DNA of 64,000 bases from Acidobacteriota bacterium. Its GTDB lineage: Bacteria; Acidobacteriota; UBA6911; RPQK01; JAJDTT01. The stretch lies in NCBI GenBank assembly GCA_965263035.1, contig OZ253580.1, forward strand, positions 1,728,001 to 1,792,000, in the 5' to 3' direction. A program made the position numbers and the translations under genes. Position 1 is the stretch's first letter, and each line of letters begins with the position of its first letter. Shown one piece after another: positions 5,130 to 28,647 of this stretch. The notes under the pieces were generated by a model. That model was not told the DNA's origin. It saw only the letters and a list, made by a program, of their open reading frames with translations, and did not search any database.

Positions 5130-5449
5130 GTGATTTCGGTCCTCCGAGGGGGGTCGGTCGTGCTCAGAGAGGCGGGAGGCTCCTCCGAGCAGCATTTCAG
5201 CGCGTTCGCATTACTCAATAGGATGCGGGAATTGTCGATCATTTTGAACCGTACGGATTTCTCACAAGTTCTGAACCACCGTCGCCGTGTTGTTCCCGCA
5301 CGTCTCGTGTTTCGGGCATTGTCCTGAGTTGCACCACGATGCTCACAAAAGGGAATGTGAGTTTTCCGTCCAAAATGGCTCACCGAATCTCAAATTCATA
5401 GAAGCGCTCCCACCAGTTGGCGTCCGGCGAAGTCCCGGAAGGAAAAGGA

Positions 5450-5544
5450 GGAGCGGCGGTTTCCAACCGCCGAACTCCCAAAGGGGCATGGGGGCAGGAG
5501 CGCACGGGGGAATGGAAGAATGGGGGACTACAAGTCCCCCCTCC
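5450..5544. repeat. REP-like palindromic element
   Basis: GGAGCGGCGGTTTCCAACCGCCG...GGGGGACTACAAGTCCCCCCTCC; related copies recur through the window. Confidence 0.7.
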
Positions 5545-17688: not shown

Positions 17689-17814
17689 CGGCCGGTCGGC
17701 CCGGGTCGGGGTTTGAGGTGTGGGCACGATTGCGCGGATTGGAGCGAAGAGGCGGCGACAAGAAAGTCGCCGCTCCCATTCGGCGGCAAGAAAGCCGCCG
17801 CTTGTCTGTTTAAA

Positions 17815-17982
17815 TGGGGCCGTCCGGGTCGCTCATGAGCGACCCGGACGGCGGTGGCTGGACCGTACCGCCGCGGACTGTTACGAACCGTATGGGAGTG
17901 AGGTCGGCCACCGTCTTTCCCGATGTCCTGAATGGATACGAGGGCATCAAGGCCCGAATGACAAGCACAGGAGACAGGAAAG
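17815..17982 (+). ncRNA. Predicted IS110 bridge RNA
   Basis: 5' hairpin 17819-17852. Target loop with ACCGCCGC (17867-74) and ATGGGAG (17892-98). Donor loop with ATGGATAC (17932-39) and GACAAG (17960-65). These match the observed target and donor junctions. Confidence 0.85.
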
Positions 17983-18930
17983 ATGAAACAGCATACCGTA
18001 GGCATCGACATCTCGAAAGCGCACCTGGACGCGCACCGGCTGGCCGACGGCCATTCCGCCCAGTTCGACAATGACCCGGCCGGCTTCCGGGCGCTGATTG
18101 ATTGGATCGGAACTCCGGTCGAGTGCGTCGCGTACGAGGCCACCGGTCCCTACCACCGGGACCTCGAGGAAGCGCTGTCCAAAGCGAAGCTGCCGCTGGC
18201 GAAGGTGAACCCCTGGCAGGCGCGGCGCTTCGCCGAGGCGACCGGGAGCCGCGCCAAGACCGACGCCGTAGACGCTCGGAAACTGGCCCAGCTGGCCGCC
18301 ACGCTGGAGCCGCGCCGGACCCAGGTGCCGTCCAAAACGCAACGCCGGCTCCAGGATCTGCAGACGTCCCGGGACGCGCTGATGCGCCAGCGCACGGCCG
18401 CGCTCAACCGCCGCCGACAGCTCCGCGAACCCCTGCTCAAACAGCAGAACCAGATCCAGATCAACATGTTCGAGCGCCACCTGCGCGCCATCGACCGCAA
18501 AATGCAGCAGCTGATTGCGGCCGACGAGGCGCGGGCCCGCAAGTTGGAGATCCTCACCTCCATCCCGGGGATCGCGGCCACCACCGCCGCCGGTCTGCTG
18601 GCCGAGATGCCCGAGCTGGGCGCCCTCAGCGGCAAGGCCGCCGCCAGTCTGGCCGGGTTGGCCGCCGTTCCGCGCGAGTCGGGGGCTTGGCAGGGCCGGG
18701 CCTTCATCCGGGGCGGACGGGCGCGGGCGCGACGGCTCCTGTACATGCCGGCGGTGGCCGCCCTGCGTTGGAACCCCGACTTGGCCGAGGTGTACCGGAG
18801 GCTGAGCGAGCGCGGCAAGCCCGGCAAGGTGGCCCTCGTCGCCGTCATGCGCAAGCTTATCGTCCTGGCCAACACCCTCGTCCGGCAGGACCGCACCTGG
18901 TTGCCCGTAGCGCCCCGAGCGACCTTCTGA
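17983..18930 (+). CDS. IS110-family DEDD recombinase/transposase
   Basis: VGIDISK, YEATG, KTDAVDA (DEDD); SIPGI...AGLAAVPRESG Tnp domain with catalytic Ser; VAVMRKL. Confidence 0.95.
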   Translation: MKQHTVGIDISKAHLDAHRLADGHSAQFDNDPAGFRALIDWIGTPVECVAYEATGPYHRDLEEALSKAKLPLAKVNPWQARRFAEATGSRAKTDAVDARKLAQLAATLEPRRTQVPSKTQRRLQDLQTSRDALMRQRTAALNRRRQLREPLLKQQNQIQINMFERHLRAIDRKMQQLIAADEARARKLEILTSIPGIAATTAAGLLAEMPELGALSGKAAASLAGLAAVPRESGAWQGRAFIRGGRARARRLLYMPAVAALRWNPDLAEVYRRLSERGKPGKVALVAVMRKLIVLANTLVRQDRTWLPVAPRATF

Positions 18931-19386
18931 GGCCACGGAGAAACCCCGTGAGGAAAGGGAGCGTGTGGACCCCCTGATGGCCGTCTGTCGAACTTCCGGT
19001 CAAGTCTGGCCGGAAGCTTGCTTACGGCCATGAAAGCTCTTCACGCCCTGGGGAGCGCCGGGTCACCCGAAGGGTCGCAGCGAAGCGGAGGAGCCGGAGG
19101 CTTGACCCGACGCTCCCCAGGGCGTATCCGGACCTCCCGGAGGACTGACGTCGACGATCTCAGGTCCCTCGATCCAGTTATCGGTCCACTCATCGCCCCC
19201 TGCACGGCGCCCGGCGGATCCAGCTCGATCTCCGCCTCACCTCCGGCGGAAGAACGCTCCTCCTAACCCTGTGCCCTTTGGACCGGACAGATCACGTACT
19301 AACGACACGGGATGGAAACACCGATTAGCACCCACCACTTGCAACATGGATACTCCCATTTGGCGGCAAGAAAGTCGCCGCTCCCG

Positions 19387-19998
19387 CTACGCGACGATCT
19401 GCAGGCCGTATTCCCGGGCCGAGTGATGGAGCCATAGGCCCAGATAGTCGGCGAAGCTGCGGCGGACGATCACGTCGAAGGACTGGGAGTCGGAACCTTT
19501 GCCCCTGGGAATCAGTACGACTCCGGCCTTGCCCAGATTGGTCTGGGCACATTGGCCGGGGGAGGAGCTCCTGGGGTGCAGGTCCAGAGTGCATCCCTTG
19601 GCCAGAAGTTCCCGCCTCCGGGGGCCGGAAACGTTCACCAGGGTGTAGCCACCCGTGGTGTCGACGGCAGAGGCGTGGTGCTCCCCCAGAGCCTCCCTCA
19701 GGTCAGTCACGCACCGGGTCTGCGCGCCGGGACGGAGGACGAGCAACCACTCGTCGGGGCCCATCCAGCAGACGGTGACGTCCTCGCCTTCGGCGATGGT
19801 GTTGGGATCGACCGGGAGGCCCATGTCCAGAACTCCCTCCACCGCGGCCAGAAATGGTGCATCGCCGGCATCGCCCCGCAGATTCACGTAGCCCAGAAAG
19901 GGCCGCTCAGTGAGTACGACGCCAGGACTGCCGGTGTCTCCCGCGGCTGTGCTCGACAGGACCCCGACAAAGGGGGACTCTTGCCTGAGGTCAGACAT
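19387..19998 (-). CDS. soxG: Sarcosine oxidase gamma subunit
   Basis: NLRG, WMGPDEWL, LLAKGCTLDLHP, CAQT, VRRSFADYL; operon position. Confidence 0.92.
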   Translation of the reverse strand: MSDLRQESPFVGVLSSTAAGDTGSPGVVLTERPFLGYVNLRGDAGDAPFLAAVEGVLDMGLPVDPNTIAEGEDVTVCWMGPDEWLLVLRPGAQTRCVTDLREALGEHHASAVDTTGGYTLVNVSGPRRRELLAKGCTLDLHPRSSSPGQCAQTNLGKAGVVLIPRGKGSDSQSFDVIVRRSFADYLGLWLHHSAREYGLQIVA

Positions 19999-27663: not shown

Positions 27664-28647
27664 ATGACACACCCTCCGGACGCGGGTTCAAACGGACCGC
27701 TCGCCCCTTTCCACGAGGTCCGGATCGGCCGCGACGATCCGGCGGAGACCCGACGCTCCTATGACGAGAACGGCTACCTCTTTTTCAAGGGCGCCCTCAA
27801 TGCGGACACCGTGCTCAGAGCGAAAGAGGACATTGCCGGCGTTCTGCAACAGCAGAGCTACATGCAGAAGGGTTCAGCCGAACCGCGGCCGACTCCTGGC
27901 GCCAGCGCCGTCGAGGTCGACTACGGGCCCCTCTACCGGCTGAAATCTCCCTGGGAGCTGATGGCTTCTCCGGAACTCCAGGAGGCCGTCGATATCGCTT
28001 ATGGAGAGAAGGTGCGGGTCGGACGGTCTATCGGATTCCGTTACTCCATGCCCACCGATGCTCCCTATCTCACGCCCCCTCATCAGGACCACTTCTATAT
28101 CCGGGAGACGGATGAGTTCCGCATGATCTGGATTCCCCTGATGGATATGGAGATCGCCAACGGAGGACTGGCGATCGCGGCCGACTCCCACAAGCACGGC
28201 CTTCAGGAACATGTCGAATTCGACGGAGTCTACTCCTATTTATTCAAGGGACGGCCGCAAAAGGGAGTGCGTCCCGAAGCCATCCGCGGCATTTGGACCT
28301 CGTCGCGGTTCGAAGTGGGCGATCTCCTCATGTTCCACAGTTGCGCGGTCCATCGAGCGCTCCCCAACACCAGCGGCCTGGTCAGACTCTCGCTCAACAC
28401 CATCACCTACCCGGCGCGAAGGCCGACGATGTGGCAGGCCGAGAGAACCGGGCCGGAACTGGAAGTCTTCCGCGAGCGCATTAAGCGGATCTGCGACGCC
28501 GAGGGCATCGTCGGCGACCGGTTCGAAGAGATCCAGATCATGGCCTTCAAGCAGGGGGAGGATCCGAGTCCGGAATTGGTCGCGAAGCTGGCCGCGCAGT
28601 TGGAGGGAGCGGCGGTTTCTAACCGCCGAACTCCCAAAGCAGGTTGA
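27664..28647 (+). CDS. PhyH-family dioxygenase
   Basis: ENGYLFF, PPHQD, WIPL...GGLAI..SH, GDLLMFH..VHRALPN, RLSL. Confidence 0.88.
   Translation: MTHPPDAGSNGPLAPFHEVRIGRDDPAETRRSYDENGYLFFKGALNADTVLRAKEDIAGVLQQQSYMQKGSAEPRPTPGASAVEVDYGPLYRLKSPWELMASPELQEAVDIAYGEKVRVGRSIGFRYSMPTDAPYLTPPHQDHFYIRETDEFRMIWIPLMDMEIANGGLAIAADSHKHGLQEHVEFDGVYSYLFKGRPQKGVRPEAIRGIWTSSRFEVGDLLMFHSCAVHRALPNTSGLVRLSLNTITYPARRPTMWQAERTGPELEVFRERIKRICDAEGIVGDRFEEIQIMAFKQGEDPSPELVAKLAAQLEGAAVSNRRTPKAG

What the first reader, a model, noticed from the sequence alone, without database searches (positions are those of the whole stretch)
17794..19359. Fully decodable IS110 bridge-RNA recombinase system programmed against the host REP
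Seen: the reconstructed target is GCCGCCG-CT-CCCAT and the circle-junction donor is ATGGATA-CT-TGTC. The non-coding left end has two stem-enclosed loops. Loop 1 holds ACCGCCGC (left target plus core C, 1 mismatch) and ATGGGAG (exact reverse complement of CTCCCAT). Loop 2 holds ATGGATAC (left donor plus C, exact) and GACAAG (exact reverse complement of CTTGTC). Circularisation would also join TTGCAA (19339-44) to TTAAAT (17810-15) with a 17-bp spacer. Known: IS621 uses this architecture, a CT core, REP targets and a junction promoter. Inference: an intact, probably uncharacterised programmable recombinase ortholog with a different donor sequence. A related empty site (GTCGCCGCTCCCAT, 17767-80) lies immediately beside it.
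Basis: partly seen in the sequence, partly recalled or inferred. Interest (0 to 1): 0.85.

Follow-up and report, generated by a model that had tools for sequence, protein, structure and literature searches.

The report
REP-targeting IS110 bridge-RNA insertion sequence

Summary
Window 17803-19354 is a 1552-bp IS110-group element. It has a 180-nt left end that folds into a 5' hairpin plus two internal-loop stem-loops, a 315-aa DEDD/Ser recombinase gene, and a 424-nt right end.

- **Copies:** the genome holds 13 copies. All 12 copies with both ends share the same termini.
- **Targets:** 10 insertions, one of them a 25-nt remnant, sit at ACCGCCG-CT, an exact match to the left target guide. The window copy sits at GCCGCCG-CT, one mismatch.
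- **Retargeted sublineage:** three copies have a one-base guide change (ACCGACGC). All three sit at ACCGACG-CT, inside the end of an IS5-like element.
- **Orthologues:** in Acidobacteriota, Ca. Foliamicus and an alphaproteobacterial genome, the target guides change with the local repeat and the right donor guide changes with the first bases of the element.
- **Stems:** they show compensatory changes.

Not shown: the circle, the RNA, and activity.

NCBIfam already names the protein "IS110 family RNA-guided transposase". Verdict: a real, correctly interpreted new member of a known kind, of modest interest.

The parts
17754..17780 (+). REP unit 1, unoccupied. It contains the empty site GTCGCCG-CT-CCCAT at 17766-17779.
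17781..17802 (+). REP unit 2, left half of the occupied target. The hairpin is CGGCGGC-AAGAAA-GCCGCCG. Its 3' arm is the left target GCCGCCG (17794-17800), followed by the CT core (17801-02).
17803..19354 (+). The IS110-group insertion sequence, 1552 bp counting one CT core at its right end.
   Evidence: 13 genomic copies; identical termini in 12 of 12 two-ended copies
17803..17982 (+). Left end (180 nt), the predicted bridge RNA gene. The right donor TGTC(T) is at 17803-07 and GTT (17808-10) is one arm of a 3-bp subterminal inverted repeat.
17810..17815 (+). -10-like hexamer TTAAAT of the split junction promoter.
   Evidence: reading; T..AAT kept at the same place in orthologues
17819..17852 (+). 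5' stem-loop with a perfect 15-bp stem.
   Evidence: 4 of 7 consensus pairs carry compensatory changes
17853..17912 (+). Target-binding stem-loop. The left target guide ACCGCCGC(G) is at 17867-75. The right target guide ATGGGAG is at 17892-98. The putative handshake bases TG are at 17899-900.
17925..17973 (+). Donor-binding stem-loop. The left donor guide ATGGATAC(G) is at 17932-40. The right donor guide GACAAG is at 17960-65. The putative handshake bases CA are at 17966-67.
17983..18930 (+). Recombinase gene, 315 aa. It has a DEDD RuvC-like domain and a Tnp domain. D9, E52, D94, D97 and S233 align with IS621 D11, E60, D102, D105 and S241.
18931..19354 (+). Right end (424 nt), unusually long for the IS110 group. 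It includes accreted repeat pieces.
19042..19126 (.). 85-nt palindrome nested in the right end. Its inner part is missing in 3 genomic copies, and related pieces lie elsewhere in the genome.
19339..19344 (+). -35-like hexamer TTGCAA of the split junction promoter.
   Evidence: reading; TTGACA in Foliamicus orthologues at the same place
19346..19354 (+). Left donor ATGGATA plus the CT core. It is preceded by AAC (19343-45), the other arm of the 3-bp subterminal repeat.
19355..19359 (+). Right target CCCAT, the right half of REP unit 2's tail.
19362..19388 (+). REP unit 3, unoccupied.

Best explanation
Window 17803-19354 is an intact, recently active insertion sequence of the IS110 group.

Proposed mechanism:
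1. The serine/DEDD recombinase excises the element as a circle, joining ...ATGGATA-CT to TGTC....
2. The junction brings a -35-like box in the right end next to a -10-like box in the left end.
3. The left end is then transcribed into a bridge RNA of about 170 nt.
4. The first internal loop of that RNA pairs with the target. Its 5' side carries the sequence of ACCGCCG-C, and its 3' side is complementary to CT-CC(CAT).
5. The second internal loop pairs with the donor junction in the same way, using ATGGATA-C and CT-TGTC.
6. Recombination at the shared CT core inserts the circle at the 3' foot of a host REP hairpin.

Shown here:
- the anatomy;
- the copy number and identical boundaries;
- target specificity;
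- guide-target and guide-donor covariation;
- stem covariation;
- the catalytic residues.

Inferred from IS621 and its relatives: circle formation, promoter function, RNA production and the chemistry.
For: **Protein**
- Pfam PF01548 at 7e-23 and PF02371 at 9.5e-19.
- NCBIfam NF033542 'IS110 family RNA-guided transposase' at 208 bits against a cut-off of 140.
- It aligns over residues 3-299 with the solved ISCro4 (1.7e-35) and IS621 (3e-32) recombinases. D9, E52, D94, D97 and S233-G234 sit on the motifs that hold D11, E60, D102, D105 and S241-G242 in IS621.

**Copies**
- There are 13 copies in the 6.2-Mb genome, three of them 100% identical over 1552 bp.
- 12 of 12 two-ended copies end in TGTCTG...ATGGATACT.

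**Targets**
- Left flanks are ACCGCCG-CT in 9 of 13 copies, GCCGCCG-CT in 1 and ACCGACG-CT in 3.
- 11 of 12 right flanks start with CC.
- Counting a 25-nt remnant, 10 insertions sit at exact-match ACCGCCG, against 91 empty ACCGCCG-CT-CC words. Five other left-target classes together have 1 insertion against 258 empty words (Fisher p = 1.8e-5; remnant).

**Natural retargeting**
- The 3 copies whose guide reads ACCGACGC, and no others, sit at ACCGACG-CT-CCCTA.
- Between two of them the IS differs by 1.35%, but the host element around it differs by 10.2%.
- An uninterrupted host-element copy reads ACCGACGCT|CCCTA.

**Orthologues**
- Guide and target pairs are GTCGCCGCT with GTCGCCG-CT, GCCCTCGCT with GCCCTCG-CT, and TTCGTGTCT with TTCGTGT-CT-CACGG.
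- The right donor guide reads GACAAG, TACAAG or GATAAG where the element starts TGTC, TGTA or TATC.
- 44 of 51 fully parsed elements match 8 or 9 of 9 left-target positions. Each of 9 guide classes scores highest, or ties for highest, on its own target.

**Structure**
- z = -6.16.
- On 14 left ends, 95.7% of cells are paired and 9 of 25 pairs have compensatory changes. 0 of 500 shuffles reach the covariation score, and slid controls give 0-3 compensatory pairs.
Against: - **No circle junction was seen.** The only runs available were assembled contigs, which cannot show rare joints.
- **No evidence that the RNA is made.**
- **Rfam 15 gave no credible hit** in the left end. The best, RsmW, scored 21.9 bits against a gathering score of 52.
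- **The junction hexamers are weak.** They match the sigma-70 consensus at only 8 of 12 positions and lack A at -10 position 2 (by reading; criteria).
- **The left guides miss the second core base.** The ninth base reads G or A in this genome's copies rather than T.
- **The right target guide is reliable only for the core plus two bases.** In four copies with a changed right guide, the right flanks match only 2-6 of 7.
- **The right end is longer than the left end** (424 against 180 nt), the opposite of the rule stated for the IS110 group.
- **The structure control is partly circular.** The structure tested was derived from the same alignment.
- **The occupancy test treats words as independent**, although they are repeats.
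Confidence: 0.93

Rival explanations
1. The element is a real IS110-family member, but the loop matches are by-products of shared sequence, because the element carries copies of its own ends and of REP-like GC-rich words. On this view the protein alone chooses the target.
For: The genome is 62% G+C and CCGCCGC-type words are common. ACCGCCGCT occurs 207 times against 124 expected, and a GCCGCCGC-like word with up to 1 mismatch arises in 14.6% of left-end shuffles.
Against: - Guides change together with targets in at least five lineages, and with the donor in three.
- These include a target with no resemblance to REP: TTCGTGT-CT-CACGG paired with guide TTCGTGTCT.
- All four words together arose in 0 of 20,000 shuffles.
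- The words always lie in the unpaired loops of covarying stems.
Confidence: 0.02
2. The three copies at ACCGACG-CT are not independent retargeted insertions. One accidental insertion into an IS5-like element was spread as a passenger when that element transposed, and the guide change arose afterwards by chance or by drift.
For: - All three sit in the same place in the same kind of host element.
- Two of them (3695500 and 1125872) differ about as much in the IS (1.2%) as in the host element (1.5%). Those two could be one event.
Against: - The third copy's host element differs from the other two by 10.2-10.5%, while its IS differs by 0.9-1.35%.
- A fourth host-element copy carries a right-end fragment at the same point.
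- The guide change is at exactly the position, and to exactly the base, in which the target differs.
- Four host-element paralogues reading ACCGAAG-CT-CCTTA are all empty.
- Gene conversion among IS copies could still mimic the lower IS divergence.
Confidence: 0.15
3. The copy in the window is a fossil: structurally complete but no longer mobile, with the family silenced in this genome.
For: No circle, RNA or new insertion was observed. No promoter-like site was found in the integrated form.
Against: - Three copies at different sites are 100% identical over 1552 bp, including this one.
- Frames are open across the domain in all 13 copies, 281-322 aa with no stops.
- A missing promoter in the integrated state is what the junction-promoter model predicts.
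Confidence: 0.1

Closest known systems
IS621 of Escherichia coli, the IS110 group prototype bridge recombinase (PMC11208160 sections 6 and passages; PMC11208158 passages)
   Same: - Two-domain DEDD/Ser recombinase alignable over residues 3-299 at E = 3e-32.
- Bridge RNA in the left end with a 5' stem-loop plus a target loop and a donor loop.
- The 5' sides of the loops carry the top-strand sequence and the 3' sides are complementary to it.
- CT core, REP target, and a promoter split across the junction.
- A 3-bp subterminal inverted repeat around the donor (AAC...GTT here, by reading).
- Handshake positions are consistent. The base after the right target guide is U opposite donor A7. The base after the right donor guide is C where target position 7 is G, and A where it is T (read).
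   Different: - The target differs: ACCGCCG-CT-CC here against ATCAGGC-CT-AC.
- The donor differs at least at positions 6-7: TA here against AT.
- The second core base is not matched by the left guides here.
- The right end is 424 nt, longer than the left end.
- The host is an acidobacterial genome with its own REP family.
ISCro4 / IS622 bridge recombinase (PDB 9t56; preprint 10.1101/2025.05.14.653916, seen in the search listing only)
   Same: It is the best-scoring solved relative (1.7e-35, residues 3-299) with the same domain order.
   Different: It is only a distant sequence relative. Nothing about its RNA or targets was compared here.
ISPpu9 and ISPpu10 of Pseudomonas putida (PMC12288879 passages; preprint 10.64898/2026.03.19.712850 abstract and section 7 part 1)
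   Same: - IS110-family elements inserted in REP sequences, often in REP clusters.
- As for ISPpu10, the left target is an arm of a DNA hairpin. Here the 7-nt left target is the whole 3' arm of the REP stem.
- ISPpu9 carries an extra module (MITEPpu9/ssr9) downstream of the transposase gene that also exists on its own elsewhere. Here pieces of the long right end also occur elsewhere in the genome.
   Different: - ISPpu9 uses an AG core and makes no hybrid promoter.
- ISPpu10 lacks the 5' stem-loop, whereas this element has a 15-bp one.
- No donor-like ends were found around the right-end pieces here, so modular mobility is not shown.
IS4321/IS5075 (IS1111 group), which target the terminal repeats of Tn21-family transposons (title seen in the reference list of PMC11208160; the paper itself was not read)
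   Same: A member of the wider family aimed at the end of another mobile element, like the ACCGACGC-guide sublineage that sits about 40 nt inside the end of an IS5-like element.
   Different: - A different subgroup, with the bridge RNA in the right end and long subterminal repeats.
- Here the retargeting is a one-base guide change within one genome.

Membership tests
IS110 family, IS110 group (bridge-RNA recombinase elements) | Recombinase with an N-terminal DEDD RuvC-like domain (PF01548) and a C-terminal Tnp domain (PF02371) | tested here: met
   7.1e-23 and 9.5e-19, both above the curated cut-offs. NF033542 at 208.2 bits against a cut-off of 140.
IS110 family, IS110 group (bridge-RNA recombinase elements) | Catalytic D-E-D-D and Ser residues present | tested here: met
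   In the alignment to IS621 (8wt6), D9, E52, D94, D97 and S233 fall on the GID, EAT, KTDxVDA and ESG motifs. The residue roles come from PMC11208158. The two-residue offset between PDB chain numbering and the paper's numbering is inferred.
IS110 family, IS110 group (bridge-RNA recombinase elements) | [quoted passage not shown] | tested here: met
   (MFE fold, z = -6.16). (consensus of 14 left ends, 9 of 25 pairs compensatory, 0 of 500 shuffles). No Rfam model matched.
IS110 family, IS110 group (bridge-RNA recombinase elements) | First loop matches the target and second loop matches the donor, each on both sides of the core | tested here: met
   The left target guide matches 8 of 9 positions against the majority target. 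The right target guide matches 7 of 7 at this copy. The left donor guide matches 8 of 9. The right donor guide matches 6 of 6.
IS110 family, IS110 group (bridge-RNA recombinase elements) | Guides covary with target and donor across relatives | tested here: met
   five left-target classes and three right-donor classes change together with their guides.
IS110 family, IS110 group (bridge-RNA recombinase elements) | Short shared core (CT) at both junctions, no long terminal inverted repeats, no target duplication beyond the core | tested here: met
   (CT on both sides in 12 of 12 copies). (an empty site reads ...ACCGACGCT|CCCTA... with one CT). The ends are not inverted repeats, by reading.
IS110 family, IS110 group (bridge-RNA recombinase elements) | Long left end and short right end | tested here: not met
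   The left end is 180 nt and the right end 424 nt. Orthologues have right ends of 13-80 nt, so the long right end is a lineage-specific accretion. The bridge RNA is still in the left end.
IS110 family, IS110 group (bridge-RNA recombinase elements) | Promoter reconstituted across the circle junction | tested here: inconclusive
   The hexamers are present with a 17-bp spacing (by reading), and a TTGNNN box is kept in the right end of orthologues. They match the consensus at only 8 of 12 positions. A joined sequence could not be scanned, and function is untested.
IS110 family, IS110 group (bridge-RNA recombinase elements) | Excision as a double-stranded circle and RNA-dependent insertion | not testable with these tools
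   One search used contigs only and listed no back-joint.

The most novel reading that the evidence does not exclude
One IS110 lineage keeps its donor (ATGGATA-CT-TGTC) nearly fixed while its target loop is rewritten to fit each host.

- **Across hosts:** in Acidobacteriota, Ca. Foliamicus and an alphaproteobacterium the target loop matches that genome's own repeat.
- **Within this genome:** two sublineages coexist that differ by one base in each target guide. They hit two different repeated targets: the REP hairpin foot, and the end of an IS5-like element.

If so, this would be a natural in-genome case of bridge-RNA reprogramming, including an RNA-guided element aimed at another mobile element. 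The right end would serve as the place where extra repeat modules accumulate.
Probability: 0.55. Interest if true: 0.45.

Novelty: new member of a known kind. Interest (0 to 1): 0.3.

Why it matters
- **As a catalogue entry:** it adds a cleanly decodable bridge recombinase from a phylum far from the characterised E. coli and Pseudomonas examples. It has a GC-rich 7+2+2 target, a well-defined donor and a set of natural guide variants.
- **As a bench starting point:** the variants form a small natural specificity series: exact match, one-mismatch insertion, one-base retargeting, and paralogous sites left empty. That could guide tests of mismatch tolerance.
- **For genome biology:** it shows REP arrays acting as safe landing sites in this genome too.

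None of this changes the current understanding of the family.

Tried and rejected
**Rfam.** Nothing reached a gathering score. The 18 weak hits are hairpin look-alikes, mostly microRNA families plus a few small-RNA families such as RsmW, so there is no independent model-based confirmation of the RNA.

**Sequencing runs.**
- All 24 runs listed are kept as assembled contigs. Four were laid: X1, X5, X16 and X18.
- No back-joint from 19354 to 17803 was listed, but contigs drop rare forms, so this says nothing about circles.
- A joint 17802->19361 with CCCG between the two sides appeared in 3 of 4 runs. It has only 22 letters on its shorter side and looks like other REP arrays, so I do not count it as an empty site.
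- In the RNA-library run X18, contig word depth over 17818-17935 was about 1600-2300, against about 60-300 over the gene. In DNA run X5 the two variant contigs at 17842-17922 summed to about 102, against 187 over the gene.
- The tool states that contigs cannot give RNA levels and that DNA may be present in RNA libraries. I therefore treat this as no evidence.

**Promoter scan.** It found no promoter-like site in the integrated form. The junction could not be scanned because a joined sequence may not be typed.

**Relic junction in the right end.** I looked for an internal relic donor junction in the right end that would explain its growth. The candidate CCGTC-TGTC-GAAC is also present in shortened form (CCGTC-GAAC) in the 80-nt right end of L038, so it is ancestral right-end sequence and not a relic junction.

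**L039 and L089.** These have a longer, rearranged left end. Their guides were not decoded, because the regex anchors failed.

**Parsing limits.** 21 of 72 elements lacked one or more of the six features under my regex anchors and were left out of the class table. They are listed. The first version of that script mis-anchored several rows and was replaced.

**Tools and files not available or not used.**
- Supplementary tables of the survey papers are closed, so I cannot say whether this orthologue is already listed there.
- One literature search for IS110 + Acidobacteriota + sponge + bridge RNA found one unrelated paper.
- The search for homologous proteins, structure prediction and complex prediction were not used, because the family assignment was already clear.
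Full report
**What is there.** Window 17803-19354 is bounded on the left by GCCGCCG-CT and on the right by CCCAT. Its own last bases are ATGGATA-CT and its first are TGTC. It has three parts:
- a 180-nt non-coding left end;
- a 315-aa open frame at 17983-18930;
- a 424-nt non-coding right end.

The frame carries both IS110 domains: PF01548 at 7.1e-23 and PF02371 at 9.5e-19. It passes NCBI's model NF033542, 'IS110 family RNA-guided transposase', at 208.2 bits against a cut-off of 140. It aligns over residues 3-299 with the two solved bridge recombinases, ISCro4 (1.7e-35) and IS621 (3e-32). In that alignment D9, E52, D94, D97 and S233-G234 fall on the motifs that hold D11, E60, D102, D105 and S241-G242 in IS621. 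Mutating any of the five IS621 residues D11, E60, D102, D105 or S241 abolishes recombination (PMC11208158, passages). The element lies between convergent genes, an amidohydrolase and a sarcosine oxidase gamma subunit, inside a tandem array of three REP-like hairpins.

- ACCGCCGC at 17867-74;
- ATGGGAG at 17892-98;
- ATGGATAC at 17932-39;
- GACAAG at 17960-65.

The left end from 17816 folds into a 15-bp 5' hairpin followed by two stem-loops. The four words lie in the internal loops of those stem-loops. The fold is -89.8 kcal/mol with z = -6.16, and 0 of 200 shuffles fold as well. This is the layout described for IS621 and 103 orthologues: a 5' stem-loop, then a target loop, then a donor loop. 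[quoted passage not shown] All four words together arose in 0 of 20,000 mononucleotide shuffles of the left end. The only slip is that the neighbouring empty site is at 17766-17779, one base off.

**Other copies.**
- The genome is one contig of 6.2 Mb and holds 13 copies.
  - Nine are full length, 1552-1555 bp.
  - Three lack about 75-78 bp of the right end.
  - One is cut off after position 1164.
- There is also a 252-bp right-end fragment and a 25-nt left-end remnant.
- Three copies, including the window's, are 100% identical.
- All 12 copies with both ends share the same termini.
- Left flanks are ACCGCCG-CT in 9 copies, GCCGCCG-CT in 1 (this copy) and ACCGACG-CT in 3.
- 11 of 12 right flanks begin with CC.

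The guide ACCGCCGC is therefore an exact match to the usual target, and the window copy is the one insertion at a one-mismatch site.

**The REP family.**
- A loose pattern, GGCG-NN-loop-NN-CGCC-GCT, finds 300 hairpins.
  - Their loops are mostly AAGAAA or TGGAA.
  - 200 are followed by CC and 10 by the element.
- The 7-nt left target is the whole 3' arm of the stem (by reading).
- Insertions strongly favour the exact match.
  - Counting the remnant, 10 insertions sit at ACCGCCG, against 91 empty ACCGCCG-CT-CC words.
  - The five other left-target classes together have 1 insertion against 258 empty words (Fisher p = 1.8e-5).
- These words are repeats and not independent, so the p-value is only indicative.

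**Natural retargeting inside the genome.**
- The left ends fall into three variants.
  - Six copies are identical to the window's.
  - Three copies have C to A in the left guide (ACCGACGC) and A to T in the right guide.
- All three of those copies, and no others, sit at ACCGACG-CT-CCCTA.
- That site lies about 40 nt inside the left end of an element of about 1.2 kb. The element encodes a DUF772 + DDE_Tnp_1 transposase, so it is IS5-like.
- Divergence points to independent insertions.
  - Copy 653129 and copy 3695500 differ by 20 of 1477 aligned bases (1.35%) in the IS.
  - The host element beside them differs by 118 of 1154 aligned bases (10.2%).
  - So at least two insertions hit already-diverged host copies, unless gene conversion homogenised the IS.
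- A further host copy carries the right-end fragment at the same point.
- One uninterrupted host copy reads ACCGACGCT|CCCTA. That gives a true empty site with a single CT.
- Four host paralogues reading ACCGAAG-CT-CCTTA are all empty.

The four remaining copies have a rewritten right guide, AAAG(G/C)AG. Their right flanks fit it poorly, at 2-6 of 7 positions. As in IS621, where the right guide is counted as four bases, only the core plus two bases can be relied on.

**Orthologues.** A protein-seeded scan found 60 loci:
- Acidobacteriota genomes at 84-94% identity;
- Ca. Foliamicus at 65-69%;
- one alphaproteobacterial genome at 37-44%, many copies;
- one fragment in a Maritimibacter genome at 49% over residues 23-104.

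Guides change with targets:
- GTCGCCGCT sits at GTCGCCG-CT.
- GCCCTCGCT sits at GCCCTCG-CT, which is the foot of a different REP, GAGGGC-AGGAT-GCCCTC.
- TTCGTGTCT, with a right guide complementary to CTCACGA, sits at TTCGTGT-CT-CACGG.

The right donor guide reads GACAAG, TACAAG or GATAAG where the element begins TGTC, TGTA or TATC. Every element with both features scored 6 of 6, except L061 and L076 at 5 of 6.

Of 72 elements, 51 could be fully parsed by my anchors. The other 21 are truncated or rearranged and are listed. Among the 51, the left guide matches the left flank as follows:
- at 8 or 9 of 9 positions in 44;
- at 7 of 9 in 5;
- at 6 of 9 in 2.

Each of the 9 guide classes scores highest, or ties for highest, on its own modal target.

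**Handshake positions.** These are the positions described for IS621, and they also fit, as read.
- The base after the right target guide is U in all lineages, opposite donor A7.
- The base after the right donor guide is C where target position 7 is G. It is A in the alphaproteobacterial lineage, where position 7 is T.

**RNA structure across relatives.**
- An alignment of 14 distinct left ends gives a consensus.
  - It consists of the 5' hairpin, the outer stem of the target loop, and the outer and apical stems of the donor loop.
  - All four guide segments are unpaired in it.
- On that structure 95.7% of cells pair and 9 of 25 pairs show changes on both sides.
- 0 of 500 shuffles reach the covariation score, and sliding the partners by 1-3 columns leaves 0-3 such pairs.
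- The structure was derived from the same alignment, which favours it.

**Junction promoter.**
- End-joining would place TTGCAA 17 bp from TTAAAT, by reading.
- Orthologues keep a TTGNNN box at the same distance from the core: TTGACA in Foliamicus and TTGATT in the alphaproteobacterial copies.
- The Acidobacteriota and Foliamicus copies also keep a T..AAT box at left-end positions 8-13. In the alphaproteobacterial copies a TCTAAT box lies at positions 3-8.
- The match to consensus is only 8 of 12.
- No promoter-like site exists in the integrated form, which is what the model expects but does not prove it.

**What differs from the textbook case.**
- The right end (424 nt) is longer than the left end, although the IS110 group is described as having long left ends and short right ends.
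- Orthologues have right ends of 13-80 nt, and one acidobacterial lineage has 312 nt. The extra DNA is therefore a lineage-specific accretion.
- It includes an 85-nt palindrome at 19042-19126. Its inner part is missing in three copies, and relatives of it lie at other places in the genome.
- Growth of IS110 elements by added DNA, and a separate module behind the ISPpu9 transposase gene, are both in print (abstract of 10.64898/2026.08.14.744561; PMC12288879 passages).
- The left guides of this genome's copies do not match the second core base.

**What is not shown.**
- No circle junction, RNA or recombination was observed.
- The available runs are contigs only.
- Rfam has no matching model.
- The left end was found in 5 of 8 other genomes of the same genus. 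It was not found in the 6 searched of a second genus, and it was found in 1 of 16 from other families of the order. This patchy spread is normal for an insertion sequence.

**Verdict.** The element is a genuine, apparently recently active bridge-RNA insertion sequence aimed at the host REP. It has a neat natural example of one-base retargeting. All of its principles are already described, and the protein falls in a family that standard annotation already names as RNA-guided. It is a new member of a known kind, of modest interest.

Noticed in passing
L009:335-1500 (= G000:C1:651963-653128, minus strand); other copies near G000:C1:146000, 1608352, 1999863, 2236950, 3695499, 1127346, 4205112, 4172064: An IS5-like element of about 1.2 kb with a 385-aa DUF772 + DDE_Tnp_1 frame, present in at least nine copies. 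Three copies carry the IS110 element about 40 nt inside their left end, and one carries a right-end fragment at the same point.
   Followed up: partly
G000:C1:4172064-4173843: One IS5-like copy is split by about 1.75 kb of other DNA whose ends are inverted repeats (TTATATACGAAAGTGCC...). The split falls just after the point where the IS110 element inserts in other copies, and CCCTAAAATAAGGGG is present on both sides. It looks like a third kind of mobile element.
   Followed up: no
G000:C1:3360524-3360997, 2038245-2038718, 4848500-4848973, 2456933-2457406: Four copies of a second, different IS110-family recombinase gene (PF01548 at 1.5e-36 to 7.7e-35, open frames of 505-558 aa). Its RNA and targets were not examined.
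   Followed up: no
window 18973-19141 and 19190-19310; L018, L019/L023, L021, L024, L026, L027: Pieces of the long right end (the 85-nt palindrome region and a second stretch) have 70-95% identical relatives at other places in the genome, outside any IS copy. They may be small independent repeats captured by the element.
   Followed up: partly
G000:C1:4205113-4205524 (L014, L020, L025): A cluster of right-end fragments in both orientations next to an IS5-like copy. It may be the scar of a rearrangement between copies.
   Followed up: no
G000:C1:5976195 (minus strand): A REP unit followed by only the first 25 nt of the element and then REP-like sequence. This is a left-end remnant left by a deletion.
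   Followed up: no
window 28602-28627 (-) and 5446-5471 (-): Two unoccupied REP units in the window read ACCGCCG-CT-CC. They are exact matches to the left guide and to the core plus two bases of the right guide, so they are potential landing sites.
   Followed up: no
G006, G007 and G023 matches (for example G007:C2:6040622-6040709): Several related genomes hold sequences that match only positions 92-180 of the left end, the donor-loop half. This suggests sister elements that share the donor loop but have a different 5' half.
   Followed up: no
L047-L088 (one alphaproteobacterial genome): That genome holds about 40 copies or fragments of a 37-44% identical relative. It uses the same donor (ATGGATA-CT-TGTC) but has a 238-nt left end, and its right end is only about 15 nt after the stop codon. 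Nearly all copies sit at TTCGTGT-CT-CACGG.
   Followed up: partly
one search run list; one search run X16: Near-identical copies of the element are held by runs of 10 studies. Some are labelled sponge metagenome, and one of those (X16) was laid and holds contigs 90-99% alike. The source of the window was not sought.
   Followed up: no
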